This document shows, piece after piece, positions 37,325 to 63,071 of a stretch of DNA of 64,000 nucleotides. The notes beneath the pieces are model-generated. The model did not search any database. It was not told the origin of the DNA and saw nothing but the letters and a program-made list of their open reading frames with translations. Source of the stretch: a bacterium (GTDB lineage: Bacteria; Desulfobacterota; Desulfocorpusculales; Desulfocorpusculum). Every line of letters begins with the position of its first letter. Position 1 is the stretch's first letter. The DNA lies in contig JBBFLE010000002.1 of the NCBI GenBank assembly GCA_037481695.1, positions 16,661 through 80,660 of the forward strand. The letters are read 5' to 3'. The position numbers and the translations under genes are program-made.

Positions 37325-37460
37325 GCGGGTGGACAGGGTTGATAGCTAGGCACCCCTGCAGCACACGAGGAAGTTACGGCCGCTGCTTCCTCCCGGACCT
37401 GACGGGGTTGGTAACCCCTCGTCGCACAGGACCCAGCTATCAACTCTGCCCACCCGCTGC
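37325..37460 (-). ncRNA. ffs: signal recognition particle RNA (small 4.5S-type)
   Basis: The minus strand reads ...GUCAGGUCCGGGAGGAAGCAGCGG..., matching the conserved SRP RNA domain IV motif. Flanked by complementary arms (GGGUGGGCAGAGUUGAUAGCUGGG / CCUAGCUAUCAACCCUGUCCACCCGCC) forming the long closing helix. Upstream of dnaX as in many bacteria. Ends approximate to about 5 nt. Confidence 0.7.
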
Positions 37461-37612
37461 CTTCTGCACGGTCGGCTTTCCGGACCCACCCACCGCATTC
37501 TCAGAGACCGGCCCATGAGCTCACAGTCTCAAGATCATGGGCCATTTACAAAGCCCAATCTCTGGAATCGGCACGAGGATCTTGCAATTGCCGGCCTTTT
37601 GCTTGAAAACAC

Positions 37613-37707
37613 TGGCGGAGAGAGAGGGATTCGAACCCTCGGTACACCTTTTTGGATGTACACACGATTTCCAATCGTGCCCCTTCAGCCAACTCGGGCA
37701 TCTCTCC
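37613..37707 (-). tRNA. tRNA-Ser (anticodon GGA), type II with long variable arm, CCA encoded
   Basis: Minus strand folds as acceptor GGAGAGA/UCUCUCC, anticodon stem CACGA/UCGUG with loop UUGGAAA (GGA), long variable arm, T-loop GGUUCGAAUCC, discriminator G and 3' CCA. Confidence 0.85.
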
Positions 37708-37728
37708 ATGAAAGCGCATGCTTTTCCA

Positions 37729-37822
37729 TGGCGGAGAGAGAGGGATTCGAACCCCCGGTCCACCTCGCGGTGGACAACTGATTTCGAATCAGCCGCCTTC
37801 AGCCAAACTCGGCCATCTCTCC
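37729..37822 (-). tRNA. tRNA-Ser (anticodon CGA), type II with long variable arm, CCA encoded
   Basis: Minus strand has the same acceptor and T arms as the neighbouring tRNA, anticodon stem GCUGA/UCAGU with loop UUCGAAA (CGA), long variable arm. Confidence 0.85.
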
Positions 37823-38310
37823 GTCTTGTAAAGCAGTTTTTGCCTCTGTCTCAACCTCTCAAAAAAGGAGCTCATCAGGCCTCTGCACTGGGCCTCCAGC
37901 ACTCCGCAGTTGACCTCCAGCCTGTGATTGAGCCTTCCATCGGAGTGTATGGAGTACCTGGAGCCCATGGCCCCTGCCTTTGGATCAGCGCACCCATAGA
38001 CCACCCGCTCCAGCCTGGCCAGGTGAAGTGCTCCCGTACACATGACACAAGGCTCCACGGTCACGTAGAGCCTGGCCCCCAAGAGCCTGTAATTGCCTTT
38101 TCTGGAGCAGGCATCCCTCAAGGCCAAAATTTCTGCATGGGCCGTGGGATCACAGAGCTCCTCACAACGGTTGTGGGCCCTTGCCACAACCTCCCCTTCC
38201 ATGACCAGCACTGCACCTACTGGGACCTCGCCCTCTTGGAAGGCCTCCATTGCCTGCTGAAGAGCCATCCTCATGTAATCCTCATCCCTCATCTCCTGCG
38301 GCCTATCCAT
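37789..38310 (-). CDS. tadA: tRNA-specific adenosine(34) deaminase
   Basis: 173 aa with CDA-fold zinc motifs HAEILALR and PCVMCTGAL. The ORF as drawn has its last ~11 codons inside the 5' part of tRNA-Ser(CGA). Confidence 0.88.
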   Translation of the reverse strand: MDRPQEMRDEDYMRMALQQAMEAFQEGEVPVGAVLVMEGEVVARAHNRCEELCDPTAHAEILALRDACSRKGNYRLLGARLYVTVEPCVMCTGALHLARLERVVYGCADPKAGAMGSRYSIHSDGRLNHRLEVNCGVLEAQCRGLMSSFFERLRQRQKLLYKTERWPSLAEGG

Positions 38311-38885
38311 GGTGGCCCCGGTGAGAAACCCTGAAGCTCTCCTCAGATCTTGGCTCCCCCTTTTTTGTCAGGCGGAAGTGAACTCAGAATAGATCAGCCC
38401 CCCCCGAAAATCAACCCCAGCAGGCCTCACCCTGGAGGCTGCCCCGCCAGGGAAGCCCCTCAAGGAGCCTCCCCCGGCCTGTGGCCTTTGGGGCCCTGCA
38501 AGCCCGTTTTTTGAGTGCAAGGCCACACCTGTTGCGGCTCCAGTGGATGGGAAAGCTCTGTACAGGCCAGCTGGTTCCCCAAAGGACTCCAAAAAGGCAA
38601 AGCTCCGGCATGGGCAGCAATCCCAACACACTCCACCAGATCCCGGGCTTTGGGGCCATCTCCAGCATTTCTTCTTGCCACAAGCCCTGAGAGGGCCTGT
38701 GGCGCAAAACCCAAGAGCAGGCTCTGGACTTCTGAAATGGTCTGGGCCAAGCACTTCTCTAACCCAGGATCCCTGGGCCTTTTCTGATTCCCAATAAAGC
38801 CAGTCTGAGGTTTGCAAGGACTTGAGGATTCAGCTATAAAGTAAGGCTAGATAAGCGTCAAGGTCATTTCCAAGCTGGAGCGCTC

Positions 38886-41261
38886 ATGGGCCCGGAGCCT
38901 AAGGAACCCACCAGCCATTGCCTCATCAATTCCAGCCTGGATCTCCTGCTTAGGCTGGATCAGCCAGCTCTCATGCTCCTGGATTCATCGGGCAGAGTGC
39001 TCACAGCCAACCAAGGAGCTTCCCAATTGACAGGTTTCTCTCCCGCAGAAATTCTTGGCCTGGACTTTCTTTCGCTATTCCAACCCCAGGATCGAGAAAA
39101 CATAACACGCTGCTTGCGCCAAGGCAGCCCCCCAGGGTCCACGCAGGCGGATCTGATAACTGCCCGGGGGAAAAAGGTGCCAGTAGGGATCTGCTGCTCT
39201 TCGGGCTCCAGCCAGACCTGGGTGGCTCTATGGGATCAGGAGGAACTCAAGAGGTTACATAGGCTCGCCCAGGAGGCTGCAGACAGGGCGGAAAAGATAG
39301 CGGGGATGGGTGATATTGGAATTCTCATCTATGACCAGGACTTCCGCATAGAGTTTGCCAACGAGATGGCTGGAGAAATCCTAGGCCTTCCCTCTCGTTC
39401 TCTGTTGGGAATGGAGATAACCCGCTTCTTGGGCCGAATACACCGAATACAGCTAAAGGACCTTCACTCTCCTCTGCACCCGGATGGTCCCAGAAGGGTT
39501 CGAATGGAGATGCCACTGGAGAGGCCCGACAACACGAAAAAGCTGGTAGAGATTTGTCTCTCCATGATCAGGACCCCTTTGGGCCAAAGCCACACCTACG
39601 CTTACCTGAGGGACCTGACCGAGCGGGTTCAGATGGAGATGGAGCTTCGCAAGACCAACGAGTTTCTGCAGAACGTTATCCGAAGCTCTGTGGACGGTAT
39701 AATAGCCGCAGACATGAAGGGCAACATAATAATCTTTAACGAGGGAGCTGAGCGTCTCTTGGGTTACAGAGCAGAAGAGGTGATCGGAAAGATTCACATC
39801 ACTCAGCTCTACCCCCCTGGGGTGGCCAAGAAGATAATGCGTAGGCTCAGGAGCGACACCTATGGACCCAGGGGGAAATTGCCCACAACCCCCACCACCA
39901 TAGTGGCCAAGACGGGCGAACACATTCCTGTGAGGATCTCTGCGGCCATAGTTTACGAGGGTGAAAGGGAAATAGCCTCTGTGGGAATCTTCCGCGACCT
40001 TCGAGAGCGCATAAAGATGCAACAGCAACTCGAAGACACTTACCGCCAGCTTCTCCACTCTGAGAAGCTGGCCTCCCTGGGAAAGCTGGCAGCAGGGGTT
40101 GCCCATGAACTGAATAATCCCCTTGGTGGGATACTCATGTATGCCAACATGCTCCTGGAGCAGGCGGCAGATGGCCCCATGGCCCAAGATTTGAAGGTGA
40201 TTGTTGAGCAGGCTCTGCGGTGCAAAGAAATAGTAAGGGGTCTACTGGATTTTGCCAGACGCCGAGGCGAAGAAAGGGTCCGGGTGGACCTGAACAAAGA
40301 TGTGATAGAGAAGTGTATAGCTATCATGAGCAAGCAAGCCATGTTCCTCAATATCCAGTTGGAGTGCGAATTGCCTTCGGATCTTCCTCCCATAGCAGCA
40401 GACCCAGATCAGTTGAGCCAGGTATTCACCAACCTCATAGTCAATGCCGTGGACGCCATGGAGGGCAAAGGCACCCTTCGCATAAGAACTTGGGCAGAGG
40501 GAAGCCCAGCACAGCTCCATGCCGAGGTTTCGGATACAGGCAGTGGCATACCAGAGGATTATCTGCCCCGTATCTTTGATCCATTTTTCACCACCAAGGA
40601 GGTGGGCAAGGGCACTGGTCTGGGTCTGAGCATAGCGTACGGCATCGTGCGGCGGCTGGGAGGTGATATTCAGGTGAGGAGTCGGGCAGGAGAGGGAACC
40701 ACCTTCCACCTTCGTTTCCCCCTGGAGCCAGCCTCGGAAATTCCTGCCGAGGTGGAGGAGGGGGTGGCAGGCATAAGGGATCAGGATGGCCGCTTCATAC
40801 AGGTGGTGCTGGCGGGTGAAAGGACCCTCACGAGACTTCTGTCTTTCTATGATGCCTTCCAACCCAAGGGCGCCTTTGAGGGCCTTCCGCCTGCAGCCAA
40901 GAGGGAGCGTCGAAAATGGGTAATAGGCCTGATGGGTGGGTGGCGCAACTTCCTGCTCTTGGACGGTGATCAGGTAGTAGGCCATGTAGGGGTGACCCTT
41001 GGAGAGTCGGACCTGGAGGAGGTAATAATCTTTCTCCGCCATGAGTATAGGGGAAAGGGGATCGGCAGTAGGGCCCTTCGCCACGTGGGGTCCCTGCTGG
41101 CAAGGGAGGGATGCCGTAGGCTATGGCTCACGGTGGAGTCTACCAACACGGTTGCAATAAGGTGCTTCCAAAAGGCAGGGTTTCGTTTCACCTCCAGGGC
41201 CATTGAGCCCGAAATGGAGATGGTCATGGATCTTGGGGAGTGGGGGCATGGAGAGACCTGA
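38886..41261 (+). CDS. PAS-domain sensor histidine kinase with C-terminal GNAT acetyltransferase-like domain (fusion)
   Basis: 791 aa: two or three PAS-like units, HisKA (GVAHELNNPLGGI), HATPase_c (VSDTGSGIPEDYLPRIFDPFFTTKEVGKGTGLGL), then ~150 aa with GNAT motif A (LRHEYRGKGIGSRALRHV) and beta-strand pattern. Confidence 0.8.
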   Translation: MGPEPKEPTSHCLINSSLDLLLRLDQPALMLLDSSGRVLTANQGASQLTGFSPAEILGLDFLSLFQPQDRENITRCLRQGSPPGSTQADLITARGKKVPVGICCSSGSSQTWVALWDQEELKRLHRLAQEAADRAEKIAGMGDIGILIYDQDFRIEFANEMAGEILGLPSRSLLGMEITRFLGRIHRIQLKDLHSPLHPDGPRRVRMEMPLERPDNTKKLVEICLSMIRTPLGQSHTYAYLRDLTERVQMEMELRKTNEFLQNVIRSSVDGIIAADMKGNIIIFNEGAERLLGYRAEEVIGKIHITQLYPPGVAKKIMRRLRSDTYGPRGKLPTTPTTIVAKTGEHIPVRISAAIVYEGEREIASVGIFRDLRERIKMQQQLEDTYRQLLHSEKLASLGKLAAGVAHELNNPLGGILMYANMLLEQAADGPMAQDLKVIVEQALRCKEIVRGLLDFARRRGEERVRVDLNKDVIEKCIAIMSKQAMFLNIQLECELPSDLPPIAADPDQLSQVFTNLIVNAVDAMEGKGTLRIRTWAEGSPAQLHAEVSDTGSGIPEDYLPRIFDPFFTTKEVGKGTGLGLSIAYGIVRRLGGDIQVRSRAGEGTTFHLRFPLEPASEIPAEVEEGVAGIRDQDGRFIQVVLAGERTLTRLLSFYDAFQPKGAFEGLPPAAKRERRKWVIGLMGGWRNFLLLDGDQVVGHVGVTLGESDLEEVIIFLRHEYRGKGIGSRALRHVGSLLAREGCRRLWLTVESTNTVAIRCFQKAGFRFTSRAIEPEMEMVMDLGEWGHGET

Positions 41262-43108: not shown

Positions 43109-43686
43109 GTGTGTAAGCATCTGTGGGGTTGGAATGCTGGTCCTAGTTCTTTCTCATCTCGACATGGTATGAAGTGGCTATGAAATAACGAGGCCAAGAC
43201 AATATACGCCCTGGGGCATCACCCACATCCAGATCATAAGCCAGCGCGCAGTTATGCCATAGCCCAATTGTGGCCAGCCTGGAACAGGGATAGATAATCA
43301 GCTCCACCACCATGGCTAAGAAACCATGTGTCTTCCTCCAGAGCATTGGTGAAGGATCTCATTTTGGAAAACCCTTTTATGACTTGACAGCTGAGGAATC
43401 CATGTGCTTTTATTCGATTACAGCTCGGGGCAACCTTATTTCTCGTGCCTGAAGCCCACGCTCTTTTTCGGTTGCGCAGGGTGGAAATGGCGCATGCTCC
43501 TTTGGATTCTCACTCGGTCCTACCCCAAAGGCTCTACTCGCTCGTCTCAGGTTGCCCAGCCGCAGGATTGGATTTAGGTCTTAGATGCACATGAGTTAGG
43601 CTCGAGTTGGGCCCGAGCCGGACACACCGTGGCGGTTGACGGGATCTATCCATCTCCCAGGGACATCTTCCACATAGGAGGACGAC

Positions 43687-46323
43687 TTGGAAACCGTGGC
43701 CATTACACTAGATGGGGTCCCGGTAAGCGGGCGACAGGGGATTACCATACTGGAGCTGGCCGGGGAAGTGGGCATTTACATTCCCACCTTGTGCCATGAC
43801 CCAAGTCTCAAGCCCTCAGGGGCCTGCAGGATATGTGTTGTAGAAGATGAGACCTCCCATAGACTGGTGGCCTCCTGTGTTACACCCATCGCATCGGGCA
43901 TGCGCATTCAGACTCGCTCCCCCATGGTGCTGGAGGCCCGCAAGGTGATCCTCAAGCTCATGTTGGCCAACCATCCGGAATCCTGCCTGGTTTGCGACAA
44001 GGGAAATCGCTGCAGATTGAGGCAACTGGCCAGCGATTTTGGTATAGGGCTGGTGGATTACGACCGGATGAATTCCTTGGTGGGAATTCAAGAGGCCAAC
44101 CCCTTTATTCAAAGGGATCTGAGCAAGTGCATCCTTTGCGGCAAGTGTATAAGGGCAGACCAGGAGCTGGTGGTGGTGGGAGCATTGGATTATCTCCATC
44201 GCGGGTTCAACACCAGACCAGCCACCTTGATGGAGCTTCCCCTGGAGCGTTCCGAGTGCACCTTCTGCGGCACCTGCGTGGCCATCTGTCCCACAGGCGC
44301 TTTGACAGAGCGAGGCCGTCCCCACCTGGGAACCGTTGGAATCAGGACCGCCACTACCTGTTCCTATTGCGGGAGCGGATGCTCTCTATGGGCTTACGTA
44401 GTGGAGGATCGCCTGGTGCAGGTTGAGCCCAAGGCCCAAGGATCTGCCAACAAGGGCGCCCTCTGCGTGAGGGGACACTATGGAAGCGATTACCTGCACC
44501 ACCCAGAGAGGCTTCTGCACCCTCAGCTCAGGAAGGATGGAAAACTGGTGGAGGTGTCCTGGCAGCAGGCCTTGGACGAGGTGGCATCCAGGCTCATGGA
44601 GATATCCAGCCGCTACGGGCCGCACTCAGTGGGTTTCTTCGGCTCAACCCTTTGCACCAACGAGGAGAACTATTTGTTCCAGAAACTGGCCAGAGTGGGA
44701 ATAGGCACCCCCAACGTGGACAACGGGGCAAGGCTCCACTGCGCAGGTAGCCTCTTGGGCATGCAGGAAAGCCTCGGCACCTCAGGTGCAACCCACCCCT
44801 TGGAAGAGTTGGAGCGGGCCGATGTGATACTGGCCTTGGGAGCCCAGCCCCTGGAATCCCATCCAGTTGCTGGTTACGCCATAAAGAGGGCCGTGAGACA
44901 AAGGGGGGCCTTGCTCATATACGCTTCACCCTTGAGGGACTCCTTGAGCCGTATGGCCAGGCTCTGGCTCTGCCCATGGCCTGGTTCTGAGGACCGCCTT
45001 GTACTGTGGCTCCTGGCCAGAGTGATGAGGGCAAAGGGCAGGGCCTTGCCCCAGTGGATGGAGGCCATGGGTCCGGACTCCCTTTTGGATGGCACCATGG
45101 TGAAGGTCGAGGACATGGAGCAGGCCACTGAGATCCTTTGCTCCACATCTCGGGTGGGCATAGTGTTCGGTCGCGGACTGTCCGGGCTGCCAGGTGGGAA
45201 GCAGGCCGTTAGGGCATTGGTCCAACTGGCCTTGGAGCTGGGATGTCTCGGGATCAGTGGAGGAGGGATCTATCCCCTGGATAGGGGTTGCAACACCCTG
45301 GGGGCATGCGACATGGGCACCCTGCCAGAGTTCTTGCCTGGATGGAGGAAGGCCTCGGATCCCAAAGCCAGAGCTGAGCTGGGCGAACTCTGGGGCCAGG
45401 ATCCCCCACAGGGAAGGGGTTTGACGCTTCCGCAGATGCTGGAAGCGGCCCTCAGGGGAGATTTAAAAGCCCTTTACGTAATGGGCGAGAACCCCCTGGA
45501 ATTGCTGCCCGCACTGGCAGGGGAGGCCATGTCCAGCCTGGAGTTTCTGGTGGTGCAGGATATCTTCCCCACCAGGACTGCTCAGATGGCTCATGCTTTG
45601 CTTCCCGCAGCGGGGTTCCTGGAGAAGGAAGGCACGTACACCAGCCTGGAAAGACGAATCCAGAGGCTGAGGGTCTGTTCGTCCCCACCAGGAGGAGCAA
45701 GGCCAGACTGCTGGATCCTCACACAGTTGTTGGCGCGCATGAGTCTTAACCCGCAACATGAGTCGGCCGTTGAGATCATGAAGGAAATCTCCGAGGTGGT
45801 GCCCCAGATGAGGGGGGTGCGATATTCTCTGCTGGAGACTGAGCCCGTATTTTGGCCTTGCACGGAAGCTGGTGCCACTGGGGAGAGAATCCTGTTTCGG
45901 GGTGGTGTTCCCTCCTCGCATGCAATTTTGGAGGAGTCTTGGACTCCCTCCATGGAGAACCCGGACCCGGATTTCCCATTCCTGGCAGTGGAGGGGGAGT
46001 GTCTTTTCAGAGCAGGGGGAGCATCCCGAACAAGTAGATCTGCCAGGCTCAGGGCATTCAAGGCAAGGGGGGAGGTCTGGATGAATCCGGCAGATATGGC
46101 CTCACTGGGCTTGGAGCAGGCACAGGAGGTTCGCCTGGTCTCAAGGCAAGGCAATCTGCTGGCCACAGCACATCCCAGGGAAGAGCTTCACCCCGGGTTG
46201 CTGTGGGTTGTACCTGGGGCCGGTGGCCCGGCCATGGCTGCTTTGGCTCCTTGGAGTTTGGATCCCTCCTCTGGATCAATCCCCACTTTCAGGGCATGGG
46301 TGAGAGTGGAGGGAGTCCCCTGA
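43687..46323 (+). CDS. FdhA/NuoG-like molybdopterin oxidoreductase subunit (N-terminal 2Fe-2S and 4Fe-4S domains plus Mo-bisPGD-fold domain); catalytic status uncertain
   Basis: 878 aa with 2Fe-2S ferredoxin N-terminus (CHDPSLKPSGACRICVV), 4Fe-4S motifs (CILCGKCIRAD, CTFCGTCVAICP), molybdopterin-domain cluster CSYCGSGCSL...KGALCVRG, and conserved LGACDMGTLP region. No in-frame TGA, so no selenocysteine. Confidence 0.8.
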   Translation: METVAITLDGVPVSGRQGITILELAGEVGIYIPTLCHDPSLKPSGACRICVVEDETSHRLVASCVTPIASGMRIQTRSPMVLEARKVILKLMLANHPESCLVCDKGNRCRLRQLASDFGIGLVDYDRMNSLVGIQEANPFIQRDLSKCILCGKCIRADQELVVVGALDYLHRGFNTRPATLMELPLERSECTFCGTCVAICPTGALTERGRPHLGTVGIRTATTCSYCGSGCSLWAYVVEDRLVQVEPKAQGSANKGALCVRGHYGSDYLHHPERLLHPQLRKDGKLVEVSWQQALDEVASRLMEISSRYGPHSVGFFGSTLCTNEENYLFQKLARVGIGTPNVDNGARLHCAGSLLGMQESLGTSGATHPLEELERADVILALGAQPLESHPVAGYAIKRAVRQRGALLIYASPLRDSLSRMARLWLCPWPGSEDRLVLWLLARVMRAKGRALPQWMEAMGPDSLLDGTMVKVEDMEQATEILCSTSRVGIVFGRGLSGLPGGKQAVRALVQLALELGCLGISGGGIYPLDRGCNTLGACDMGTLPEFLPGWRKASDPKARAELGELWGQDPPQGRGLTLPQMLEAALRGDLKALYVMGENPLELLPALAGEAMSSLEFLVVQDIFPTRTAQMAHALLPAAGFLEKEGTYTSLERRIQRLRVCSSPPGGARPDCWILTQLLARMSLNPQHESAVEIMKEISEVVPQMRGVRYSLLETEPVFWPCTEAGATGERILFRGGVPSSHAILEESWTPSMENPDPDFPFLAVEGECLFRAGGASRTSRSARLRAFKARGEVWMNPADMASLGLEQAQEVRLVSRQGNLLATAHPREELHPGLLWVVPGAGGPAMAALAPWSLDPSSGSIPTFRAWVRVEGVP

Positions 46324-46426
46324 CAAGGATTCTTGGCCGGGGCAGGAAGTATGAGGACCTGCGCCCCAGGATTTTCACAGCCCTCGTGAACCATGGGGCG
46401 AAAAGCTCAGGCAGGGAGGGTTCAAA

Positions 46427-46882
46427 ATGGGCAAAGACCAGCAGTTGGATGGGATCATGGGGGGGTTTTCAAAATGTAGGGAATCTCTGATCCCGCTTCT
46501 ACAGGGGGTGCAGCAGCATTACGGTTATGTGCCACCCGAGACCCTGGAGCCCATTGCCCTCTATCTAGGGCTTTTCCCAGCAGAAGTGCAGGGTGTAGTG
46601 ACCTTTTACGCCCAATTCTCCCTGACCCCCAAGGGCAGGAACATAGTGCGCGTGTGCAGGGGAACAGCCTGCCACGTGAGGGGTGGGAGATCTATCTTGA
46701 CAGTGGCCGAGGAGAAACTGGGAATAAGGGACGGCGAAACAAGACAAGACCTTCGCTTCAGCCTGGAGACAGTGGCCTGTCTGGGTACCTGTTTCCTGGC
46801 TCCGGTGATGATGGTGAACCGCAACTATTATGGCAAGCTCGTTCCGTCCCAGGTCCAGTCCATCCTGCGACAATACGAGTAA
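46427..46882 (+). CDS. NuoE-like [2Fe-2S] thioredoxin-fold subunit
   Basis: 151 aa with NuoE/24-kDa-type motifs (VCRGTACHVRGG, VACLGTCFLAPVMMVN). Confidence 0.8.
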   Translation: MGKDQQLDGIMGGFSKCRESLIPLLQGVQQHYGYVPPETLEPIALYLGLFPAEVQGVVTFYAQFSLTPKGRNIVRVCRGTACHVRGGRSILTVAEEKLGIRDGETRQDLRFSLETVACLGTCFLAPVMMVNRNYYGKLVPSQVQSILRQYE

Positions 46883-46903
46883 CCCCGATGGAGGGCTCAG
46901 GCC

Positions 46904-55825: not shown

Positions 55826-57331
55826 CTACCTCATCTTCACCTCAAAAGGCTTCATTGCCTCCACATGCCCGCCTATTTTCTGGTAATCGCTCAGAAGCAT
55901 GGTGTACTCAATGGGGCAGATGGTGGCTGGAGTGGGAGTCCAGTAAAACGCCCCCTGCTTCACCCTCTCTACGTCAACCATGAAACTTATGCCTCCTCCA
56001 GGAAGCACAAAGGTAGGAGCCCCTCCCACCGTCAGGTTGGCCTTTCGGGCATGTACGGCCTGAGTCAACTTGATGGGATACCGGCTCACCCCGGCCCTGG
56101 CACTTCCCCCTGCTCCCCCCATGTAAAGGGCCGACACACGGGAAGGTTCGCAGCTGGAAGCCACAGCCTCCACGACATCCCTGGCCAGGGCTGTCAGTTC
56201 CACCTCCTCCAGTTGGCCTCTGGCATTCACCTGAAACATCACGGCCTTTTCCCCGGTTGTCTCTGTGACCAATATCCTCATGCCAGGCCAGGCCACCTTC
56301 ATGTCCAGTTCCTTGATGACCTCCCTGGGATGAACAATGGAGGTCCCTCCCCACCCTGAACCATGGTCTCCGAAATACCTGCCTGGAGTCGATTGTTTGA
56401 ATCGCAGCTTTACCCCGGTGGGCTTCACGCCCACAAACCTTCCGGCAGCATGCTCACTCATGAGGCTTGTGAGGTGGGAATCCAGGACTATCACCTCATC
56501 GGCCGCCTCTTTGAACAGAGGCGCAAAAAGCCCCATGGTGGCGCTTCCGCAGCCAACCCTCATTCTGGAGCTCTCTTGGCCGTTTACCACCGGAGGGAAG
56601 CCCACCCTGATCTCCAGCCTGGCTCCTCCCTCCACCTGGAGTTTCACGGCCCTGCGATTGGCTATCTCACACATGGTTCGCGCCACCACCATGCCATCGG
56701 GGCCTGTAAGCAGATTCACACCCCCTATGGAGAGCATCTTGGAGCCGTACTGTTCTGTGGTCACATGGCCCACCACTTTCTTCCCCACCTTTACCCTGGC
56801 TCCCTCTTGCCCAACAGGCAGATCCGTGTCCACCTTTACCAAAACCGAGCTGTAGCTGAGGGGGGCTTCGGTGACCACCGTCACAACATCCACCCCCTGC
56901 ACCTTCCCATGGAGGATATGGGGGGCAGGCCTGCAGTCAGGATATGTGGTCCCAGCTCCTATGCCAGTAACCAGAGGCTTTCTTATCTCCTCGCTTATAT
57001 CCTCCCCCACCACCTGAGCCACTTCCTCAAAGCCGTGAAGAGGAACCACTCTGACCAGAGATCCCTCCTGGTTACGATACCTCTGGCAGGCCCCCAGGAA
57101 GCCTTCCTTGATCCGACACCCCACAGGGCATGCCTCACATGGTACAGAGCCTTCAGGCACCTCTGCCGGGAAATCCACGGCCTCTTGAGGACAGACTCTC
57201 TTGCAAGCCCCACAGAAGCTGCATCCCTGTCCCACCCTGGCCTTTCTGGATCTTATTTTGATGACCCCCAGGGAACATGCCAGCACGCATTCTCCACAAC
57301 CAATGCACTTTTGCTCATCAACTATCATCAT
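55826..57331 (-). CDS. 4Fe-4S dicluster-domain protein; candidate 6-hydroxynicotinate reductase-like enzyme (function tentative)
   Basis: Start at MM (57331/57328), preceded by GGAGG. N-terminal 2x[4Fe-4S] ferredoxin motifs (CIGCGECVLAC, CSFCGACKRVCP) and a further Cys cluster (CEACPVGC), then a ~400-aa domain with no motif I can name. Track ORF to 57520 overlaps the upstream gene and has a non-protein-like prefix. Confidence 0.55.
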   Translation of the reverse strand: MMIVDEQKCIGCGECVLACSLGVIKIRSRKARVGQGCSFCGACKRVCPQEAVDFPAEVPEGSVPCEACPVGCRIKEGFLGACQRYRNQEGSLVRVVPLHGFEEVAQVVGEDISEEIRKPLVTGIGAGTTYPDCRPAPHILHGKVQGVDVVTVVTEAPLSYSSVLVKVDTDLPVGQEGARVKVGKKVVGHVTTEQYGSKMLSIGGVNLLTGPDGMVVARTMCEIANRRAVKLQVEGGARLEIRVGFPPVVNGQESSRMRVGCGSATMGLFAPLFKEAADEVIVLDSHLTSLMSEHAAGRFVGVKPTGVKLRFKQSTPGRYFGDHGSGWGGTSIVHPREVIKELDMKVAWPGMRILVTETTGEKAVMFQVNARGQLEEVELTALARDVVEAVASSCEPSRVSALYMGGAGGSARAGVSRYPIKLTQAVHARKANLTVGGAPTFVLPGGGISFMVDVERVKQGAFYWTPTPATICPIEYTMLLSDYQKIGGHVEAMKPFEVKMR

Positions 57332-57365
57332 CCTGCCTCCGTGGCCAAACCCTCTGGGCCACAAC

Positions 57366-58535
57366 CTACCTGACCAGGAGGGCCTGCCTGGTGGCTGGAG
57401 GGGTATTCCTGCTCTTTTGCACAACAACCTGCCCGTCCACCAGGACCATGGAGATCCCCGGGATATCTCCCGCTGCCATGGCCGAGAGGGCTTCCCTGCC
57501 CACAGAGCCCAGGGGGGCATCCATGATCACCAGGTCCGCCTCCATGCCTGGCTCTATTATGCCCCTGGGCAGCTTGTAAAGACGGGTCGTGTTTCCCGTT
57601 GCCATGCACACGGCTTCCTCGGGCCGCACAGGGCAAAGCCCTGCCAAAAGGGTTATGACTCTAAGGATGCCCAGGGGAACCACGCCTGTGCCCGAGGGAG
57701 CGTCGTTACCAATCACCACCCTTGACTTGGCCCCTGCTTGGGCTATGAGCCTGGCCGCCTCCACCGCCACCTTCATGTTTCCGCAGTGGACGATCTCCAG
57801 AGCAAAGGAGCTCTGCGTGACCAGTTTCTCCACCTCGGCCATGGACATGGCGGTGGTGCCTCCGTTGATATGGGACACCACATCGGGTTCCACGGCCATG
57901 ACCTGTTCGGCACCCACCGTAGAGCTGCCTGGGATGGAGGTCCCACCGGTATGCATCATGACGACCATCCCGTTTTTCTTGGCCCATTTCACCATGGGAC
58001 GTGCATCTTCGGGTGTTTTCACAGAGCCCAGCCCGATCTCTCCCACAACCCTCACACCCTCTCTGGCTGCCTCCTGAAAATCAGATTCAGTGAGCCCTTT
58101 TTCCAGAATCAGGGCCCCTCCCAGCACCTTTGCCCCTCCGGGACGAAAGGAGGCGAAGCTTTTGGCTGCCAGTATTGCCAGAGCCTTTGTGCCGGCCGCA
58201 TCCTTGGGTCTTCCTGGCAGATGTACCTCCCCGGCGGATATCACCGTGGTAACCCCACCGTGCACACCGCTGTCTAGAAAACCAAGCTGGTTCTGCCTTG
58301 GAGTAAAATCCCCCAGAACCGGATGGCAATGGGAATCCACGAGCCCCGGGATCACTGTGGTGCCTGCACAGTCAATGATTCTGTCCGCCTGGGATTCCTC
58401 CATTTCCCTGAGAAGTCCCACCTTCTGTATCTTGCCGTCCTGGATGAAAATGGCATCTGCTACCAACAGAGGCTCTTCGATCTTACCGCTTACCAGTGTC
58501 CCTATGTTCTTGAGCAACACCTTGGACATTTCCAT
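57366..58535 (-). CDS. amidohydrolase-superfamily protein (enamidase-like candidate)
   Basis: 389 aa with metal-binding HxH (PGLVDSHCHPV), further His/Asp ligand regions (MMHTGG, HINGG) and typical N-terminal beta-sandwich start (IFIQDGKIQKVG). Confidence 0.75.
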   Translation of the reverse strand: MEMSKVLLKNIGTLVSGKIEEPLLVADAIFIQDGKIQKVGLLREMEESQADRIIDCAGTTVIPGLVDSHCHPVLGDFTPRQNQLGFLDSGVHGGVTTVISAGEVHLPGRPKDAAGTKALAILAAKSFASFRPGGAKVLGGALILEKGLTESDFQEAAREGVRVVGEIGLGSVKTPEDARPMVKWAKKNGMVVMMHTGGTSIPGSSTVGAEQVMAVEPDVVSHINGGTTAMSMAEVEKLVTQSSFALEIVHCGNMKVAVEAARLIAQAGAKSRVVIGNDAPSGTGVVPLGILRVITLLAGLCPVRPEEAVCMATGNTTRLYKLPRGIIEPGMEADLVIMDAPLGSVGREALSAMAAGDIPGISMVLVDGQVVVQKSRNTPPATRQALLVR

Positions 58536-60804
58536 TTACCTCCTGGCTTGGGAAATGGCCTGCTTTAATGCAGGCCTCCAGAACTCTCTCCAGATTGGCT
58601 GGCAGTTTGTAGATCCTCTCCCCCAAGGCATCGGCTATGGCATTGAGTATGGCAGGGGCTGTTGGTATGAGTGCAGGCTCCCCGACTCCCTTGGCTCCAA
58701 AGGGGCCTGTGGGCTCGGCTGCCTCCACTATGATGGGAAGAACCTGGGGCATGTCTGCCACGGTGGGTATGTGGTAGTCTTTCATGGATTCTGTGGAACC
58801 GGCCTTGTACTCTTCCATGAGGGCAAAACCCACTCCCATGGCCACTCCTCCCAGGATCTGCCCCTTGACCGCCTCTGGGTTAAGCGCCTTTCCCACATCA
58901 TGAGCAGCCACTATCTTTTGAACCTGTACTGAGCCTGTGAGCACATCCACTTCCACCTGAGCCATCTGACATGCAAAGGCATAGGTGGCATAAGGAACCC
59001 CCTGCCCTCCCTCGGGCTCCAGAGGGGTGGTCTCGGGATCAAAGTAACCCTGCCAGGAAAGGGGAATATTTTTCTTCTTCGCCCTCTTTGCCAGATCCTG
59101 AAAAGAAACCTTTCTAGTGGGATCCCCGGCGTGCACCACATGCCATTGTCTTAGCAGGAGTGCTTCCTTGGGAGCCTTCAAGAGATCTGAAGCCTCTGTG
59201 AGGAGCACCTGGGCCAGCTTGTTACAGGCATCCAGCACCGCATTACCCGAGATATAGGTCTGACGGCTGGCCGAAGAAGCCCCTGCATTGGTTGTATGCT
59301 TGGTGTCTGCCACCACAAGCTTCAATGACTCCGGGGGAACACCCAAGACCTGGGCTGCTATCTGTGCCAAGACCGTGGTGGAGCCCTGCCCCATGTCAGC
59401 AGCCCCTGTGAAAAGGGTGAGTCCTCCGTTCTCCTCCAACTCTACCCTTGCAGTGGATGGGTTCTGAACTCCCGTGTTTCCAATGCCATACCACATGGCT
59501 CCCAGACCCACGCCCCTTCTCACATAAGGGGAGTGCTCCTTGGAGTTCTTCCATGCTGCTAGGCTCTCCCTGTAATGGGGTTCCAGAGCTTCCAGGGCTT
59601 GCAAGATGCCCACGCTGGAGCCCAGTTTCTGGCTCGTGGCTGTAAGGGATCCCTGTCTCAAGGCGTTGATACGCCTTATTTCAAGAGGGTCCATCCCCAA
59701 TTCCTGGGCCAAGAGATCCATCTGGGATTCATGGGCAAAGGCTATCTGAGGCACACCAAAACCCCTCATGGCCCCTGCCACTGGATTATTGGTGTACACG
59801 GCCAGGCTTTCCACATCTACGTTTTCCACCTCATAGGGTCCTGTGGCATGAATGGCTGCGCGGGTTGCCACAGCCACTCCGTAAGAGCAATAGGCTCCTG
59901 TATCGCAGATGATCCTGGCCTGAAGGGCCAGAAGTTTTCCTCTGGCATCTGCACCACTTTTCATCCAGATGGTGAGAGGGTGCCTCTTGGGAGTGGCAAG
60001 ATAAGCCTCCTCTCGACTGAAGACCAGCCGCACGGGCTTTCCCAGGTGGTACAGGGCCAGACCTATGAAACCCTGGACCGTCAGATCCAGCTTGGAGCCA
60101 AAACCTCCGCCCGTGGCAGCCTGTATTATTCTTACCTTCTCCTCCTTTAATCCCAAAACCTCAGCCACCTCCTTCTGGTCATAGTGTGGGTTTTGGGTGG
60201 AGGCCAAAATGACCAGGGTGTTGTCCCACTCCAGGTAACCGACCCCTGCATCGGGCTCCAGGTAGGTATGTTCCACGTGGGAAGTCTCATAGGTACGCTC
60301 CACCACAACAGCCGCCTTGGCCATGGAAGAAGCTGCATCCCCTTTGCGGATCACCCTTTTGTGAAGCAGATTGCCCTTTTCGTGGATGGCTGGAGCTGCC
60401 TGATCCATGGCCTGCTTGGGCGAAAAAACAGCCGGTAGATCCTGGTACTTAACCTTTATGGCTTCCAGCCCCTTTTGGGCTGCTATTTCATCCCTGGCAG
60501 CCACTAGGGCCACCGGATCGCCCACAAAGCGCACCTTTTCTTTGGCCAGAAGAGGCTGATCTTTGGTGATGAGGCCTATGAGATTCCTGCCAGGCACGTG
60601 GGCTGCGGTAAAGACCCCCTCCACGCCTGGCACCCTTTTGGCCTCCTCCACGTCAAGCTCCAGAATCCGGGCATGGGCTCTGTCGCTTCTGAAAACCCTA
60701 AGCACCAAAGCATCTTCCAAAGCAATGTCAGCACTGAAAATAGGCTTGCCCCTCACCCGTTCCTGGGCGCCTATCCTGGGCACAGACTTGGCTATCCAGC
60801 TCAT
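58483..60804 (-). CDS. xanthine dehydrogenase-family molybdopterin-binding large subunit (molybdenum hydroxylase)
   Basis: About 773 aa with GGGFGSK motif and C-terminal GAKGVGEPALIPTAPAILNAI motif. Start taken at MSWIAKSV (ATG at 60804), leaving a 1-nt gap from the upstream stop. Confidence 0.9.
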   Translation of the reverse strand: MSWIAKSVPRIGAQERVRGKPIFSADIALEDALVLRVFRSDRAHARILELDVEEAKRVPGVEGVFTAAHVPGRNLIGLITKDQPLLAKEKVRFVGDPVALVAARDEIAAQKGLEAIKVKYQDLPAVFSPKQAMDQAAPAIHEKGNLLHKRVIRKGDAASSMAKAAVVVERTYETSHVEHTYLEPDAGVGYLEWDNTLVILASTQNPHYDQKEVAEVLGLKEEKVRIIQAATGGGFGSKLDLTVQGFIGLALYHLGKPVRLVFSREEAYLATPKRHPLTIWMKSGADARGKLLALQARIICDTGAYCSYGVAVATRAAIHATGPYEVENVDVESLAVYTNNPVAGAMRGFGVPQIAFAHESQMDLLAQELGMDPLEIRRINALRQGSLTATSQKLGSSVGILQALEALEPHYRESLAAWKNSKEHSPYVRRGVGLGAMWYGIGNTGVQNPSTARVELEENGGLTLFTGAADMGQGSTTVLAQIAAQVLGVPPESLKLVVADTKHTTNAGASSASRQTYISGNAVLDACNKLAQVLLTEASDLLKAPKEALLLRQWHVVHAGDPTRKVSFQDLAKRAKKKNIPLSWQGYFDPETTPLEPEGGQGVPYATYAFACQMAQVEVDVLTGSVQVQKIVAAHDVGKALNPEAVKGQILGGVAMGVGFALMEEYKAGSTESMKDYHIPTVADMPQVLPIIVEAAEPTGPFGAKGVGEPALIPTAPAILNAIADALGERIYKLPANLERVLEACIKAGHFPSQEVNGNVQGVAQEHRDTGKR

Positions 60805-60805
60805 T

Positions 60806-62930: not shown

Positions 62931-63071
62931 GGCCGCCCTCCTTTGGGAAAATTGGGAACAGGATTTACTTATCCTTTCCCGTCATGTGCGGAGTTAGTCC
63001 CCAACAGGAACCATCGTTGGTTCAAAGCTGATTCTTTGCCCGACACTGGTCATGGCCTTGATTTTCCTCTC

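What the first reader, a model, noticed from the sequence alone, without database searches (positions are those of the whole stretch)
43687..46323. FdhA-like subunit has no selenocysteine and an atypical residue order at the expected catalytic position
The ORF is uninterrupted, so there is no TGA-encoded Sec. Where E. coli FdhF (as I recall it) has ...VDNQARV-U-H-GPS..., this protein reads ...VDNGARL-H-C-AGS..., with His and Cys apparently swapped relative to the Sec/Cys-His pair. This may be a genuine Cys-type formate dehydrogenase with a shifted alignment, or a non-catalytic NuoG-like electron-transfer scaffold. The difference matters for interpreting the whole operon.
Basis: partly seen in the sequence, partly recalled or inferred. 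Interest (0 to 1): 0.55.

Follow-up and report, generated by a model that had tools for sequence, protein, structure and literature searches.

The report
Inactive formate-dehydrogenase-like subunit beside MetVF
The gene looks like a formate dehydrogenase but has lost every catalytic residue (the odd His-Cys pair is a lineage-specific accident), and it is most likely an iron-sulfur wiring subunit of an uncharacterised NAD(P)H-linked methylene-tetrahydrofolate reductase module.

Summary
The 878-codon ORF has no stop codon. In gap-free alignments His351 sits in the Sec/Cys column and Cys352 in the His column of FdhF, FdnG, FdsA and NapA.

The pair is not a shifted active site:
- Cys352 occurs only in the window and two close relatives (78% identity or more). 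Across 80 genomes these two positions are mostly Tyr-Asn or Tyr-Ser, never Cys-His, and never Sec.
- The catalytic Arg (FdhF R333) is Asp or Gln. Lys44, Gln335, Val338 and Arg581 are also replaced.
- The protein scores below the NCBIfam FDH cut-off.

The N-terminal Fe-S region is well conserved within the family (68% identity). The Mo-like domain is relaxed (38%) but still under purifying selection.

In 44 of 45 genomes the gene heads the same cluster: FdhA-like, NuoE-like, NuoF fused to a GltD/NfnB-like NADPH module, MetV, MetF. The three redox proteins carry the module set of the Stn/NfnABC bifurcating transhydrogenases, whose Fdh-like domain is known to lack pterin. One 2021 paper mentions this gene arrangement as an unstudied "X type" MTHFR.

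Verdict: this is a non-catalytic NuoG/BfuA-like scaffold, not a formate dehydrogenase. The residue swap is of little interest; the gene cluster is moderately interesting.

The parts
43676..43689 (+). Ribosome-binding site AGGAGG (43676-43681) and TTG start codon (43687-43689) of the FdhA-like gene
   Evidence: Read directly from the sequence. The closest homologues are the same length, 878 aa.
43687..46323 (+). FdhA-like / NuoG(BfuA)-like subunit, 878 aa. Domains: Fer2_4, NADH-G_4Fe-4S_3, Fer4_Nqo3, Molybdop_Fe4S4, Molybdopterin, Molydop_binding.
   Evidence: Pfam. Best PDB matches are FdsA 6tg9/9wxb (about 1e-143). AF2 model has mean pLDDT 82, above 90 in most of the Mo-like domain; Foldseek best hits are MeFDH1, RcFDH and FdhF (TM 0.87 on FdhF). 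TIGR01591 scores 462.8 bits, below the 666.25 cut-off.
43687..44346 (+). N-terminal Fe-S module (residues 1-220). It holds a [2Fe-2S] site (C36, C47, C50, C64), a His-ligated [4Fe-4S] site (H96, C100, C103, C109) and a ferredoxin-like two-cluster domain (C148, C151, C154, C201; C191, C194, C197 plus D158).
   Evidence: All ligands are invariant in 74 family members. The region is 68% identical among members below 50% overall identity. 27 of 34 family-specific invariant residues lie within residues 1-216.
44158..44160 (+). Asp158 codon. Asp replaces the fourth Cys ligand of one ferredoxin-type [4Fe-4S] site.
   Evidence: Asp in 70 of 74 family members; Cys in 37 of 38 canonical FDHs.
44347..46320 (+). 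Full-length but degenerate Mo/W-bisPGD-like domain (residues 221-878). Its own [4Fe-4S] site (C225, C228, C232, C260) is intact.
   Evidence: Of 69 columns at least 90% conserved in 39 canonical FDHs, the family keeps 40 at 90% or more and loses 13. The window protein keeps 53 of 69; E. coli NuoG keeps 24 of 69. Identity within the family is 38%. dN/dS is 0.16 against L001.
44470..44472 (+). Arg262, at the position of the strictly conserved FDH Lys (FdhF K44, FdsA K295)
   Evidence: R in 53 and K in 20 of 74 family members; K in 37 of 38 canonical FDHs. In FdhF, K44R retains 7% activity (PMC12176258).
44737..44742 (+). His351-Cys352 (CAC TGC), occupying the Sec/Cys140 and His141 columns of FdhF
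45280..45285 (+). Asp532-Arg533. Asp sits in the column of the catalytic Arg (FdhF R333, FdsA R587); an Arg follows one position later.
   Evidence: In 79 genomes position 532 is Q65/D10 and position 533 is R61/K11.
46427..46882 (+). NuoE/HydC/StnA-like [2Fe-2S] thioredoxin-like subunit (151 aa)
   Evidence: Pfam 2Fe-2S_thioredx 1.7e-49; NCBIfam NuoE. Present next to the FdhA-like gene in 44 of 45 genomes.
46904..50038 (+). Fusion protein of 1044 aa. The N-terminal part is a NuoF/HydB/StnB-like NADH-FMN subunit with an N-terminal [2Fe-2S] site (C31, C35, C67, C71). The C-terminal part is a GltD/NfnB-like module with 2x[4Fe-4S], FAD and NADPH sites (residues ~540-1040; GAGPAG 659-664; GGGNTA 792-797).
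   Evidence: Pfam and NCBIfam. In PDB, residues 30-559 best match the bifurcating HydB, StnB and NfnB subunits (652-773 bits) rather than NuoF or FdsB (366-405 bits). Residues 562-1034 match NfnA 9bov_A 103-567 and StnC 8oh5_C 103-566.
50096..50761 (+). MetV (221 aa, Cys-rich, DUF5981 / MTHFR C-terminal-like)
   Evidence: Pfam PF12225 2.4e-37. Conserved position in the cluster.
50763..51662 (+). MetF, methylene-tetrahydrofolate reductase catalytic subunit (299 aa). It starts 1 nt after metV.
   Evidence: Pfam MTHFR 2.2e-42. PDB MTHFRs match at 1e-14. It is 70-85% identical across the 44 syntenic genomes and is the best conserved gene of the cluster.

Best explanation
The ORF encodes a NuoG/BfuA-type iron-sulfur subunit that descends from an NAD-linked formate dehydrogenase alpha subunit. 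It no longer oxidises formate. Its Mo-pterin-like domain has lost the metal ligand (Sec/Cys), the catalytic His and Arg, and several other residues that are near-invariant in canonical FDHs (I recall some of these as pterin contacts). It survives as a relaxed structural domain that still carries its [4Fe-4S] cluster.

The conserved, functional part is the N-terminal chain of Fe-S clusters. The protein works with the NuoE-like subunit and the NuoF-GltD fusion encoded immediately downstream. Together these supply an NADH/FMN site and an NADPH/FAD site. They have the same module set as the Stn/NfnABC (Bfu family) electron-bifurcating transhydrogenases, with the GltD module fused to the B subunit instead of inserted into the A subunit.

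Inference, not shown: this redox module docks to MetV-MetF and feeds or withdraws the electrons of the methylene-THF / methyl-THF couple, so the five genes encode one NAD(P)H-linked, possibly bifurcating or confurcating, MTHFR. This would be the unstudied 'X type' of Yi et al. 2021.

The His351-Cys352 order is a chance, lineage-specific state of two positions that are free to vary in this family.
For: Shown:
- (1) The register of the alignment and the H/C placement.
- (2) No conservation of the pair. Cys352 is in 3 of 74 relatives. Across 80 genomes the pair is YN 31, YS 30, YG 5, HS 3 and others; there is no Cys-His and no stop codon.
- (3) Losses at near-invariant FDH positions, several of them the known catalytic or Mo-proximal residues. 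K44 becomes R, U140 becomes H/Y, H141 becomes C/S/N, R333 becomes D/Q, G334 becomes R/K, Q335 becomes G/E, V338 becomes T/G, R581 becomes E/S/T. Most fold-defining residues are kept: 53 of 69 in the window protein against 24 of 69 in E. coli NuoG.
- (4) The protein scores below the curated FDH equivalog cut-off.
- (5) In the 50%-clustered library, canonical Cys-His plus RGQNNVQG proteins first appear at about 548 bits (37% identity). All 14 better-scoring representatives lack these motifs.
- (6) Within the family the N-terminal Fe-S region is 68% identical and the Mo-like domain 38%. 27 of 34 family-specific invariant residues lie within residues 1-216. dN/dS of the Mo-like domain is 0.16, so it is constrained and not decaying.
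- (7) Synteny. Six of six contigs with unrelated flanks, and 44 of 45 species-representative genomes with enough sequence, carry NuoE, NuoF-GltD, MetV and MetF in the same order and on the same strand.
- (8) The NuoF part matches bifurcating HydB/StnB/NfnB about twice as well as NuoF or FdsB. The GltD part matches the GltD insert of NfnA and StnC.

From the literature:
- The FdhF-like domain of StnC is catalytically inactive and its clusters are off-pathway but needed for assembly (PMC10482914).
- The pterin site of NfnA is incomplete and shows no pterin density (PMC11829005).
- NuoEFG homologues upstream of metFV in Dethiosulfatarculus, 'widely in Desulfobacterales and Chloroflexi', were proposed as an unstudied bifurcating 'X type' MTHFR (PMC8515935).
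Against: - No tool here can show that the five proteins form one complex. In Sporomusa ovata the stnABC genes also lie next to metVF, yet Stn purifies alone as a transhydrogenase (PMC7483475).
- Absence of the pterin cofactor is inferred, not shown. The domain is full length, keeps 53 of 69 FDH-conserved positions and keeps motifs such as GACDMG and GENP. It is under purifying selection, so a bound cofactor without a protein ligand (as I recall for arsenite oxidase) cannot be excluded.
- One related locus (L004/L005) has MoeA and MogA-like genes three genes downstream.
- The B subunit lacks the usual C-terminal two-cluster ferredoxin domain of bifurcating HydB. The GltD two-cluster domain stands in its place. 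Bfu-style bifurcation to ferredoxin is therefore uncertain.
Confidence: 0.7

Rival explanations
1. The FdhA-like, NuoE-like and NuoF-GltD proteins form a free-standing Stn/NfnABC-type transhydrogenase (NADH, NADPH, possibly ferredoxin). It is only co-transcribed with MetVF, for instance to balance the nucleotide pools used by the methyl branch. The FdhA-like domain is still inactive.
For: The module set is the same as StnABC/NfnABC. In S. ovata stnABC lies directly beside metVF yet is purified as a separate heterotrimer. MetVF alone is an active ferredoxin-dependent enzyme in C. ljungdahlii (PMC8515935).
Against: The linkage to metV-metF is almost invariant: 44 of 45 genomes across two phyla, in unrelated neighbourhoods. 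It persists when the GltD part is split off (L009) and when a second metF is inserted directly upstream (L004). MetVF has no nicotinamide site of its own. The B subunit lacks the usual ferredoxin-facing C-terminal domain.
Confidence: 0.2
2. The Mo-like domain still binds a Mo/W-bisPGD (or a metal-free pterin) without a protein ligand. It would use it for a chemistry other than formate oxidation, or as a redox relay towards MetV.
For: The domain is full length and folds confidently like FdhF (TM 0.87). It keeps 53 of 69 FDH-conserved positions against 24 of 69 in NuoG. dN/dS is 0.16. The [4Fe-4S] cluster next to the former active site is invariant. MoeA and MogA-like genes lie near one homologous cluster.
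Against: Several positions that are near-invariant in canonical FDHs are lost or variable (K44, Q335, R581, N662, K679). That these contact the pterin is my recollection of the FdhF structure, apart from K44 (PMC12176258). No alternative ligand is conserved at or next to the ligand column. The domain is the least conserved part of the whole cluster. E. coli NuoG, which I recall has no cofactor, also keeps relics such as the EK-GT-TN-ER-Q motif.
Confidence: 0.08
3. It is a genuine Cys-type formate dehydrogenase in which Cys352, one residue downstream of the usual position, ligates the metal.
For: A Cys lies within one residue of the ligand column, next to a His. The overall architecture is that of NAD(P)-linked FDHs. 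JGI annotates relatives as 'formate dehydrogenase (NADP+) alpha subunit'. The Moorella NADPH-FDH also pairs an FdhA with a GltD-like subunit (PMC13040438).
Against: - The alignment is gap-free in four independent alignments.
- The Cys is absent at 73% identity (P0003 has HA) and in all 80 genomes.
- Arg333, Lys44, Gln335 and Val338 are also replaced.
- TIGR01591 scores below its cut-off.
- No FDH accessory, formate-transport or formyl-THF genes were found among the ORFs scanned, about 30 of the larger ones.
Confidence: 0.02

Closest known systems
StnC of Sporomusa ovata StnABC and NfnA of Caldicellulosiruptor/archaeal NfnABC (Bfu family; PDB 8oh5, 9bov, 9n5u)
   Same: A NuoG-like Fe-S subunit with an Fdh-like domain that has no catalytic function. 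It partners a NuoE-like and a HydB-like NADH/FMN subunit, and a GltD/NfnB-like NADPH/FAD module is present. In S. ovata the genes lie next to metVF.
   Different: - Here the GltD module is fused to the C-terminus of the NuoF-like subunit rather than inserted into the A subunit.
- The Fdh-like domain is full length (658 aa, including Molydop_binding) and far closer in sequence to real FDHs (1e-143 to FdsA against 1e-71 to StnC).
- The usual C-terminal two-cluster domain of the B subunit is replaced.
- The linkage to metVF is near-obligatory.
NAD+-dependent formate dehydrogenase FdsA/FdhA (R. capsulatus 6tg9, M. extorquens 7vw6) and E. coli FdhF
   Same: Best sequence and fold matches. The domain order is identical, all Fe-S ligands but one are kept, and there are NuoE/NuoF-type partners.
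   Different: It lacks Sec/Cys140, His141, Arg333, Lys44, Gln335, Val338 and Arg581 (FdhF numbering). It has Asp instead of Cys at one cluster ligand. It scores below the TIGR01591 cut-off. It is clustered with MetVF rather than with FDH maturation genes.
'X type' MTHFR gene arrangement (NuoEFG homologues upstream of metFV) noted in Dethiosulfatarculus sandiegensis, Desulfobacterales and Chloroflexi by Yi et al. 2021 (PMC8515935)
   Same: The gene order and the taxonomic range are the same. The nearest relatives of the window protein are Desulfarculaceae, Syntrophobacteraceae and Dehalococcoidia MAGs.
   Different: That paper gives two or three sentences of speculation. It does not report that the 'NuoG' is a degenerate full-length FdhA, that the 'NuoF' carries a GltD/NfnB NADPH module, or the Cys-to-Asp cluster ligand. 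No biochemical study was found in the searched library.
NuoG / Nqo3 of respiratory complex I
   Same: The N-terminal Fe-S architecture and a relic molybdopterin-fold domain. That NuoG carries no cofactor is from my own knowledge.
   Different: NuoG is much more degenerate: it keeps 24 of 69 FDH-conserved positions against 53 of 69 here. It lacks the second ferredoxin-type cluster. TIGR01973 scores 305.6 bits, below its 470 cut-off. No membrane-arm genes are present here.
SfrAB of Geobacter sulfurreducens and the Moorella NADPH-FDH (SfrB2 with SfrA2/FdhF3)
   Same: An FdhA/NuoG-like alpha subunit paired with a GltD-like NADPH subunit (PMC7483475; PMC13040438). Further details of SfrA are from my own recollection and were not tested.
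   Different: Those are two-subunit systems without NuoE/NuoF and without MetVF. The Moorella enzyme keeps Sec and is a real FDH.

Membership tests
Metal-dependent formate dehydrogenase alpha subunit (FdhF/FdsA type, TIGR01591) | Sec or Cys metal ligand at the FdhF-140 / FdsA-386 column | tested here: not met
   His351 occupies the column. In the family it is Y/H/Q/S; it is never Sec, and Cys once in 80 genomes.
Metal-dependent formate dehydrogenase alpha subunit (FdhF/FdsA type, TIGR01591) | Catalytic His immediately after the ligand (FdhF H141) | tested here: not met
   Cys352 here; S/N/G/A in relatives; His in 0 of 80 genomes.
Metal-dependent formate dehydrogenase alpha subunit (FdhF/FdsA type, TIGR01591) | Catalytic Arg (FdhF R333 / FdsA R587) within the RGQNNVQG motif | tested here: not met
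   Asp532 here (the window reads LDRGCNTLG). D or Q in the family; the canonical Arg column holds no Arg in 74 members.
Metal-dependent formate dehydrogenase alpha subunit (FdhF/FdsA type, TIGR01591) | Strictly conserved Lys between the [4Fe-4S] cluster and the pterin (FdhF K44) | tested here: not met
   Arg262 here. Family R 53 / K 20 of 74; canonical FDHs K 37 of 38. Role of the Lys from PMC12176258.
Metal-dependent formate dehydrogenase alpha subunit (FdhF/FdsA type, TIGR01591) | Score at or above the curated equivalog cut-off | tested here: not met
   462.8 bits against a cut-off of 666.25.
Metal-dependent formate dehydrogenase alpha subunit (FdhF/FdsA type, TIGR01591) | Four-domain molybdopterin fold with an N-terminal [4Fe-4S] site | tested here: met
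   Pfam domains. The AF2 model matches FdhF 1fdi with TM 0.87 and rmsd 2.5 A. C225, C228, C232 and C260 are invariant.
Metal-dependent formate dehydrogenase alpha subunit (FdhF/FdsA type, TIGR01591) | Bound Mo/W-bisPGD and formate/CO2 activity | not testable with these tools
   Needs metal and pterin analysis and enzyme assays.
Bfu-family A subunit with an inactive Fdh-like domain (StnC / NfnA type) | N-terminal [2Fe-2S], His-ligated [4Fe-4S] and ferredoxin-type clusters, encoded next to NuoE-like and HydB-like genes | tested here: met
   Ligands are invariant. The neighbouring genes are shown. The B subunit matches HydB/StnB/NfnB at 652-773 bits against 366-405 for NuoF/FdsB.
Bfu-family A subunit with an inactive Fdh-like domain (StnC / NfnA type) | GltD/NfnL-like NADPH module inserted within the A subunit | tested here: not met
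   The A subunit has no insertion. The module is fused to the C-terminus of the B subunit (residues ~540-1040).
Bfu-family A subunit with an inactive Fdh-like domain (StnC / NfnA type) | B subunit carries the extra sites needed for bifurcation (N-terminal [2Fe-2S] B2; C-terminal two [4Fe-4S] B3/B4), as stated in PMC11829005 | tested here: inconclusive
   The B2-type Cys (C31, C35, C67, C71) are present. The HydB-type C-terminal domain is not aligned; the GltD two-cluster domain (C550-C614) follows instead.
Bfu-family A subunit with an inactive Fdh-like domain (StnC / NfnA type) | NADH / NADPH / ferredoxin transhydrogenase activity | not testable with these tools
   Needs biochemistry.
'X type' NuoEFG-MetFV methylene-THF reductase (gene arrangement of Yi et al. 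2021) | NuoE, NuoF and NuoG homologues directly upstream of metV-metF on one strand | tested here: met
   Window 43687-51662 with intergenic gaps of 103, 21, 57 and 1 nt. The same order is found in 44 of 45 genomes.
'X type' NuoEFG-MetFV methylene-THF reductase (gene arrangement of Yi et al. 2021) | Occurrence in Desulfobacterota (Desulfarculales and relatives) and Chloroflexota | tested here: met
   Record titles of the 80 best loci.
'X type' NuoEFG-MetFV methylene-THF reductase (gene arrangement of Yi et al. 2021) | The five proteins form one enzyme that couples NAD(P)H to methylene-THF | not testable with these tools
   No multimer prediction or biochemistry is available here. No solved MetV structure exists.
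Nitrate reductase NapA/Nas (R-H-C motif) | Cys ligand in the ligand column, preceded by His | tested here: not met
   The E. coli NapA Cys aligns with the Sec column. The window Cys is one column later. NasC and NapA models score far below their cut-offs.
Respiratory complex I subunit NuoG (TIGR01973) | Score above the cut-off and association with membrane-arm nuo genes | tested here: not met
   305.6 bits against a cut-off of 470.05. No nuoA-N genes were found in the parts of the window that were scanned.

The most novel reading that the evidence does not exclude
The five genes encode a single, so far uncharacterised type of methylene-THF reductase. In it a domain-shuffled Stn/Nfn-like Bfu module (NADH/FMN plus NADPH/FAD) is wired through the dead FdhA-like subunit to MetVF. 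The exergonic reduction of methylene-THF would then be coupled to uphill reduction of NADP+ (or ferredoxin). In acetate-oxidising Desulfarculales and Dehalococcoidia, the reverse would apply: methyl-THF oxidation would be pulled by NADPH oxidation. That would identify the long-sought second redox partner of the MTHFR step of the Wood-Ljungdahl pathway. The former formate active-site face and its surviving [4Fe-4S] cluster would serve as the MetV docking and electron hand-over site.
Probability: 0.4. Interest if true: 0.75.

Novelty: new variant of a known kind. Interest (0 to 1): 0.42.

Why it matters
Automatic annotation calls this protein and its many relatives 'formate dehydrogenase (NADP+) alpha subunit'. 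In the 50%-clustered library, 3028 cluster representatives match it at E 1e-30 or better, and 112 of the 152 top-ranked sequences inspected lack the catalytic triad. Metabolic reconstructions of Desulfarculales, Syntrophobacteraceae and Dehalococcoidia MAGs that count it as an FDH will therefore over-predict formate metabolism.

Read correctly, the cluster points to an NAD(P)H-linked MetVF enzyme of a type that has been mentioned once but never studied. How the MTHFR step is energetically coupled, and what its second electron partner is, remains an open question in acetogen and reverse-WLP bioenergetics. This cluster offers a concrete, widely distributed candidate to express and assay. The His/Cys 'swap' itself carries no functional meaning.

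Tried and rejected
- **Shifted-register hypothesis.** HMMER pairwise, MAFFT auto, and L-INS-i on two different sequence sets all gave the same gap-free register. Rejected.
- **Nitrate-reductase-like 'R-H-C' reading.** The E. coli NapA Cys aligns one column before the window Cys. Rejected.
- **Riboswitch or other RNA in the 578-nt region upstream of the operon.** Rfam found nothing at gathering thresholds and only a 0.18 E-value chance hit in a permissive scan. Promoter and terminator scans were not above the shuffled expectation in any useful way.
- **Conserved link to the flanking two-component genes.** Only 8 of 44 loci have a similar regulator downstream of metF, and none has the upstream isocitrate dehydrogenase. 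Not part of the module.
- **Motifs as evidence for a bound cofactor.** Conserved motifs such as EK-GT-TN-ER-Q cannot be used, because E. coli NuoG keeps them too.
- **Model coordinates.** I looked for coordinates of the AF2 model to measure the cofactor cavity, but none are exposed to the sandbox.
- **Context of more distant ligand-less relatives.** The P0133 contig ends after NuoE. P0074 belongs to a different, HydB-linked system without MetVF.
- **Literature on SfrA.** The searchable library gave no residue-level information.

Full report
**1. The observation**

The ORF at 43687..46323 (+) is an uninterrupted frame of 878 codons. It begins with TTG five bases after an AGGAGG. The nearest database relatives have exactly the same length. 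There is no internal TGA, so no selenocysteine.

Pfam finds the complete architecture of an NAD-linked formate dehydrogenase alpha subunit: Fer2_4, NADH-G_4Fe-4S_3, Fer4_Nqo3, Molybdop_Fe4S4, Molybdopterin and Molydop_binding. The best solved relatives are FdsA-type enzymes, 9wxb and 6tg9 at about 1e-143 and 7vw6 at 4e-129. An AlphaFold model built on 74 homologues has pLDDT above 90 across most of the Mo-like domain. It superposes on E. coli FdhF with TM 0.87 and rmsd 2.5 A.

HMMER aligns roughly 100 residues around it to R. capsulatus FdsA without a gap. Counting along that alignment puts His351 at Cys386 and Cys352 at His387. An L-INS-i alignment with E. coli FdhF, FdnG, NapA and NuoG and four canonical long FDHs gives the same register. 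The NapA ligand Cys also falls in the Sec column, one position before the window's Cys.

The by-eye alignment was therefore right. The only slip is that VDNQARVUHGPT is FdnG, while FdhF reads NNVDCCARVUHGPS.

**2. Is the His-Cys pair a shifted active site?**

No. A search of 5.8 billion proteins returned 5172 hits at E 1e-30 or better. In the 120 best, the pair reads:
- HC only in the 95% and 78% identical sequences;
- HA at 73% identity and QA at 68%;
- then GP, SS, HS, YS and YN in more distant members.

In an alignment of 74 members, position 351 is Y37/H23/Q8 and position 352 is S35/A18/N10/G6/C3. In 80 species-representative genomes the pairs are YN 31, YS 30, YG 5, HS 3 and scattered others. 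None is Cys-His and none has an in-frame stop.

The second pillar of the FDH site, Arg333 of FdhF (Arg587 of FdsA) in the RGQNNVQG motif, is Asp532 here and D or Q throughout the family. A basic residue follows one position later.

I then listed the 69 Mo-domain columns that are at least 90% conserved in 39 canonical (Cys/Sec-His-Arg) enzymes. The family keeps 40 of them at 90% or more and loses 13. The lost positions are Lys44, Sec140, His141, Arg333, Gly334, Gln335, Val338, Arg581, Asn662 and Lys679 (FdhF numbering). Apart from Lys44, the statement that several of these touch the pterin or line the pocket is from my memory of the FdhF structure. Lys44 is documented as strictly conserved, and K44R keeps 7% activity (PMC12176258).

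The curated NCBIfam FDH model scores 462.8 bits against a cut-off of 666.25. In a library clustered at 50% identity, canonical Cys-His proteins first appear at about 548 bits (37% identity). All 14 better-scoring representatives lack the triad.

**3. What is conserved instead**

All Fe-S ligands of the N-terminal module and of the Mo-domain [4Fe-4S] site are invariant. There is one systematic exception. The fourth ligand of one ferredoxin-type cluster is Asp158 in 70 of 74 members, where 37 of 38 canonical FDHs have Cys.

Among the 49 members below 50% overall identity, the N-terminal 220 residues are 68% identical to the window protein. The Mo-like domain is only 38% identical, hardly more than its 33% identity to real FDHs. 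27 of the 34 residues that are invariant in the family but different in FDHs lie within residues 1-216.

The Mo-like domain is nevertheless not decaying. Against the 95% identical relative its dN/dS is 0.16. The N-terminal module gives 0.19, MetV 0.16 and the NuoF-GltD fusion 0.076. It also keeps far more FDH-conserved positions than E. coli NuoG does, 53 against 24 of 69.

The picture is a selected Fe-S wire carrying a relaxed but structurally maintained ex-catalytic domain.

**4. Context**

Four genes follow on the same strand, with gaps of 103, 21, 57 and 1 nt:
- a NuoE-like [2Fe-2S] protein;
- a 1044-aa fusion of a NuoF/HydB-like NADH-FMN subunit with a GltD/NfnB-like module carrying 2x[4Fe-4S], FAD and NADPH sites (GGGNTA, the GxGxxA type);
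- MetV;
- MetF.

Six contigs carrying relatives of 44-95% identity show the same cluster in completely different neighbourhoods. In one the GltD part is a separate gene. In another an extra metF sits directly upstream.

Of 45 species-representative genomes with enough downstream sequence, 44 carry all four partners in the same order and on the same strand. These are Desulfarculaceae, Syntrophobacteraceae, and mostly Dehalococcoidia and other Chloroflexota. MetF is the best conserved gene of the cluster (70-85%) and the FdhA-like gene the least (42-67%).

The scanned ORFs of the window (about 30 of the larger ones) include no FDH maturation, formate transport or formyl-THF genes.

**5. Comparison with known systems**

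The NuoF part matches the B subunits of bifurcating Bfu enzymes (HydB 7t2r/8a6t, StnB 8oh5_B, NfnB 9n5u_B/9bov_B) at 652-773 bits. It matches complex I NuoF or FdsB at only 366-405 bits. The GltD part matches the GltD insert of NfnA (9bov_A 103-567) and StnC (8oh5_C 103-566).

The three redox proteins thus hold the full module set of the Stn/NfnABC transhydrogenases, differently joined. In those enzymes the Fdh-like domain is documented as catalytically inactive. Its clusters form a dead-end branch that is needed for assembly (PMC10482914), and the pterin site is incomplete with no pterin density (PMC11829005). In S. ovata the stn genes lie beside metVF (PMC7483475).

The Bfu family survey does not mention an MTHFR-linked type (PMC9304861). 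Yi et al. 2021 do mention, in a few sentences, NuoEFG homologues upstream of metFV in Dethiosulfatarculus sandiegensis. They describe them as 'widely in Desulfobacterales and Chloroflexi' and speculate on an unstudied bifurcating 'X type' MTHFR (PMC8515935). Two further full-text searches found no characterisation.

**6. Explanation and rivals**

*Best supported:* the protein is a NuoG/BfuA-like Fe-S subunit derived from an FdhA, dead for formate. It works with NuoE and NuoF-GltD.

By inference from the near-obligatory synteny, and because MetVF has no nicotinamide site of its own, it serves as the bridge to MetVF. The result would be an NAD(P)H-linked, possibly bifurcating, methylene-THF reductase. 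The steps 'not an FDH' and 'member of a MetVF-linked cluster' are shown. 'One physical complex', 'no pterin' and the direction and partners of electron flow are inferred.

*Main rival:* a free-standing Stn-like transhydrogenase that is merely co-transcribed with MetVF. The S. ovata precedent keeps it alive.

*Minor rival:* a retained cofactor without a protein ligand. It cannot be excluded, because the domain is full length, constrained and much less degenerate than NuoG.

*Shifted-Cys FDH:* effectively excluded.

**7. Verdict**

The residue swap itself is an accident of two unconstrained positions and is of little interest.

What deserves attention is the mis-annotation of a large protein family as FDH, and the conserved FdhA-like/NuoE/NuoF-GltD/MetV/MetF cluster. 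That cluster is a noted but uncharacterised candidate for the energy-coupled MTHFR of reverse and forward Wood-Ljungdahl metabolism.

Noticed in passing
window 44158-44160 (Asp158 of the FdhA-like protein): One ferredoxin-type [4Fe-4S] site has Asp instead of its fourth Cys. This is a family signature: D in 70 of 74 members against C in 37 of 38 canonical FDHs. It suggests an Asp-ligated or convertible [3Fe-4S]/[4Fe-4S] cluster on the electron path.
   Followed up: partly
window 46904-50038: The GltD/NfnB-like NADPH-FAD module is fused to the C-terminus of the NuoF/HydB-like subunit. It replaces the usual two-cluster ferredoxin domain of bifurcating HydB. In Stn/NfnABC the same module is inserted into the A subunit. 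In locus L009 the module is a separate 374-aa gene.
   Followed up: partly
P0173, P0176, P0193, P0197, P0243, P0257: Proteins of about 1365-1409 aa with an intact Cys-His/RGQNNVQG FDH site. P0173 visibly carries a GltD-like insertion in the ferredoxin-like domain, an StnC-like architecture with a live FDH site; the other five are assumed to do so from their length. These may be NADPH-linked Bfu-type FDHs.
   Followed up: no
L004 9116-9988 and 20011-22421; L005 likewise: In one related cluster (56% identity) a second metF copy sits 13 nt upstream of the FdhA-like gene. MoeA-PBP and MogA/MoaB-like molybdenum-cofactor genes lie three genes downstream of metF.
   Followed up: no
window 37341-37822 (-): A bacterial small SRP RNA (37341-37438) and two tRNA genes (37616-37707, 37732-37822) lie here. 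The 265-aa ORF 37537-38334 (+), which has no Pfam hit, overlaps the tRNAs and is probably spurious.
   Followed up: partly
window 38886-41261 (+): A 791-aa protein combines multiple PAS domains, HisKA and HATPase_c with a C-terminal GNAT acetyltransferase domain. This is an unusual histidine kinase-acetyltransferase fusion. It is conserved at the same place in L001.
   Followed up: no
window 43109-43686: A 578-nt non-coding stretch lies between the NADP-isocitrate dehydrogenase gene and the operon. It has no Rfam match and no convincing promoter. The isocitrate dehydrogenase neighbour is not conserved in other genomes (0 of 80).
   Followed up: partly
window 51689-53684 (+): A response regulator and a hybrid REC-PAS-histidine kinase follow metF directly. 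Regulators similar to these follow metF in only 8 of 44 other genomes. Unrelated GAF/PAS kinases and response regulators do follow it in L002 and L010.
   Followed up: partly
window 57366-63983 (-): A cluster of an amidohydrolase, a xanthine-dehydrogenase-family molybdenum subunit (MoCoBD_1/2), an FAD subunit (FAD_binding_5, CO_deh_flav_C), an isochorismatase-family protein and an aldehyde dehydrogenase. It looks like an N-heterocycle catabolic locus and shows that the organism makes molybdenum cofactor.
   Followed up: no
window 54262-57520 (-): An AA_synth (PF06684) protein, a 283-aa ORF with no Pfam hit at E 1e-5 or better whose L001 counterpart carries ApbE-type precomputed hits, and a 564-aa protein whose only recognisable part is an N-terminal 2x[4Fe-4S] domain. 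The same arrangement is found in L001.
   Followed up: no
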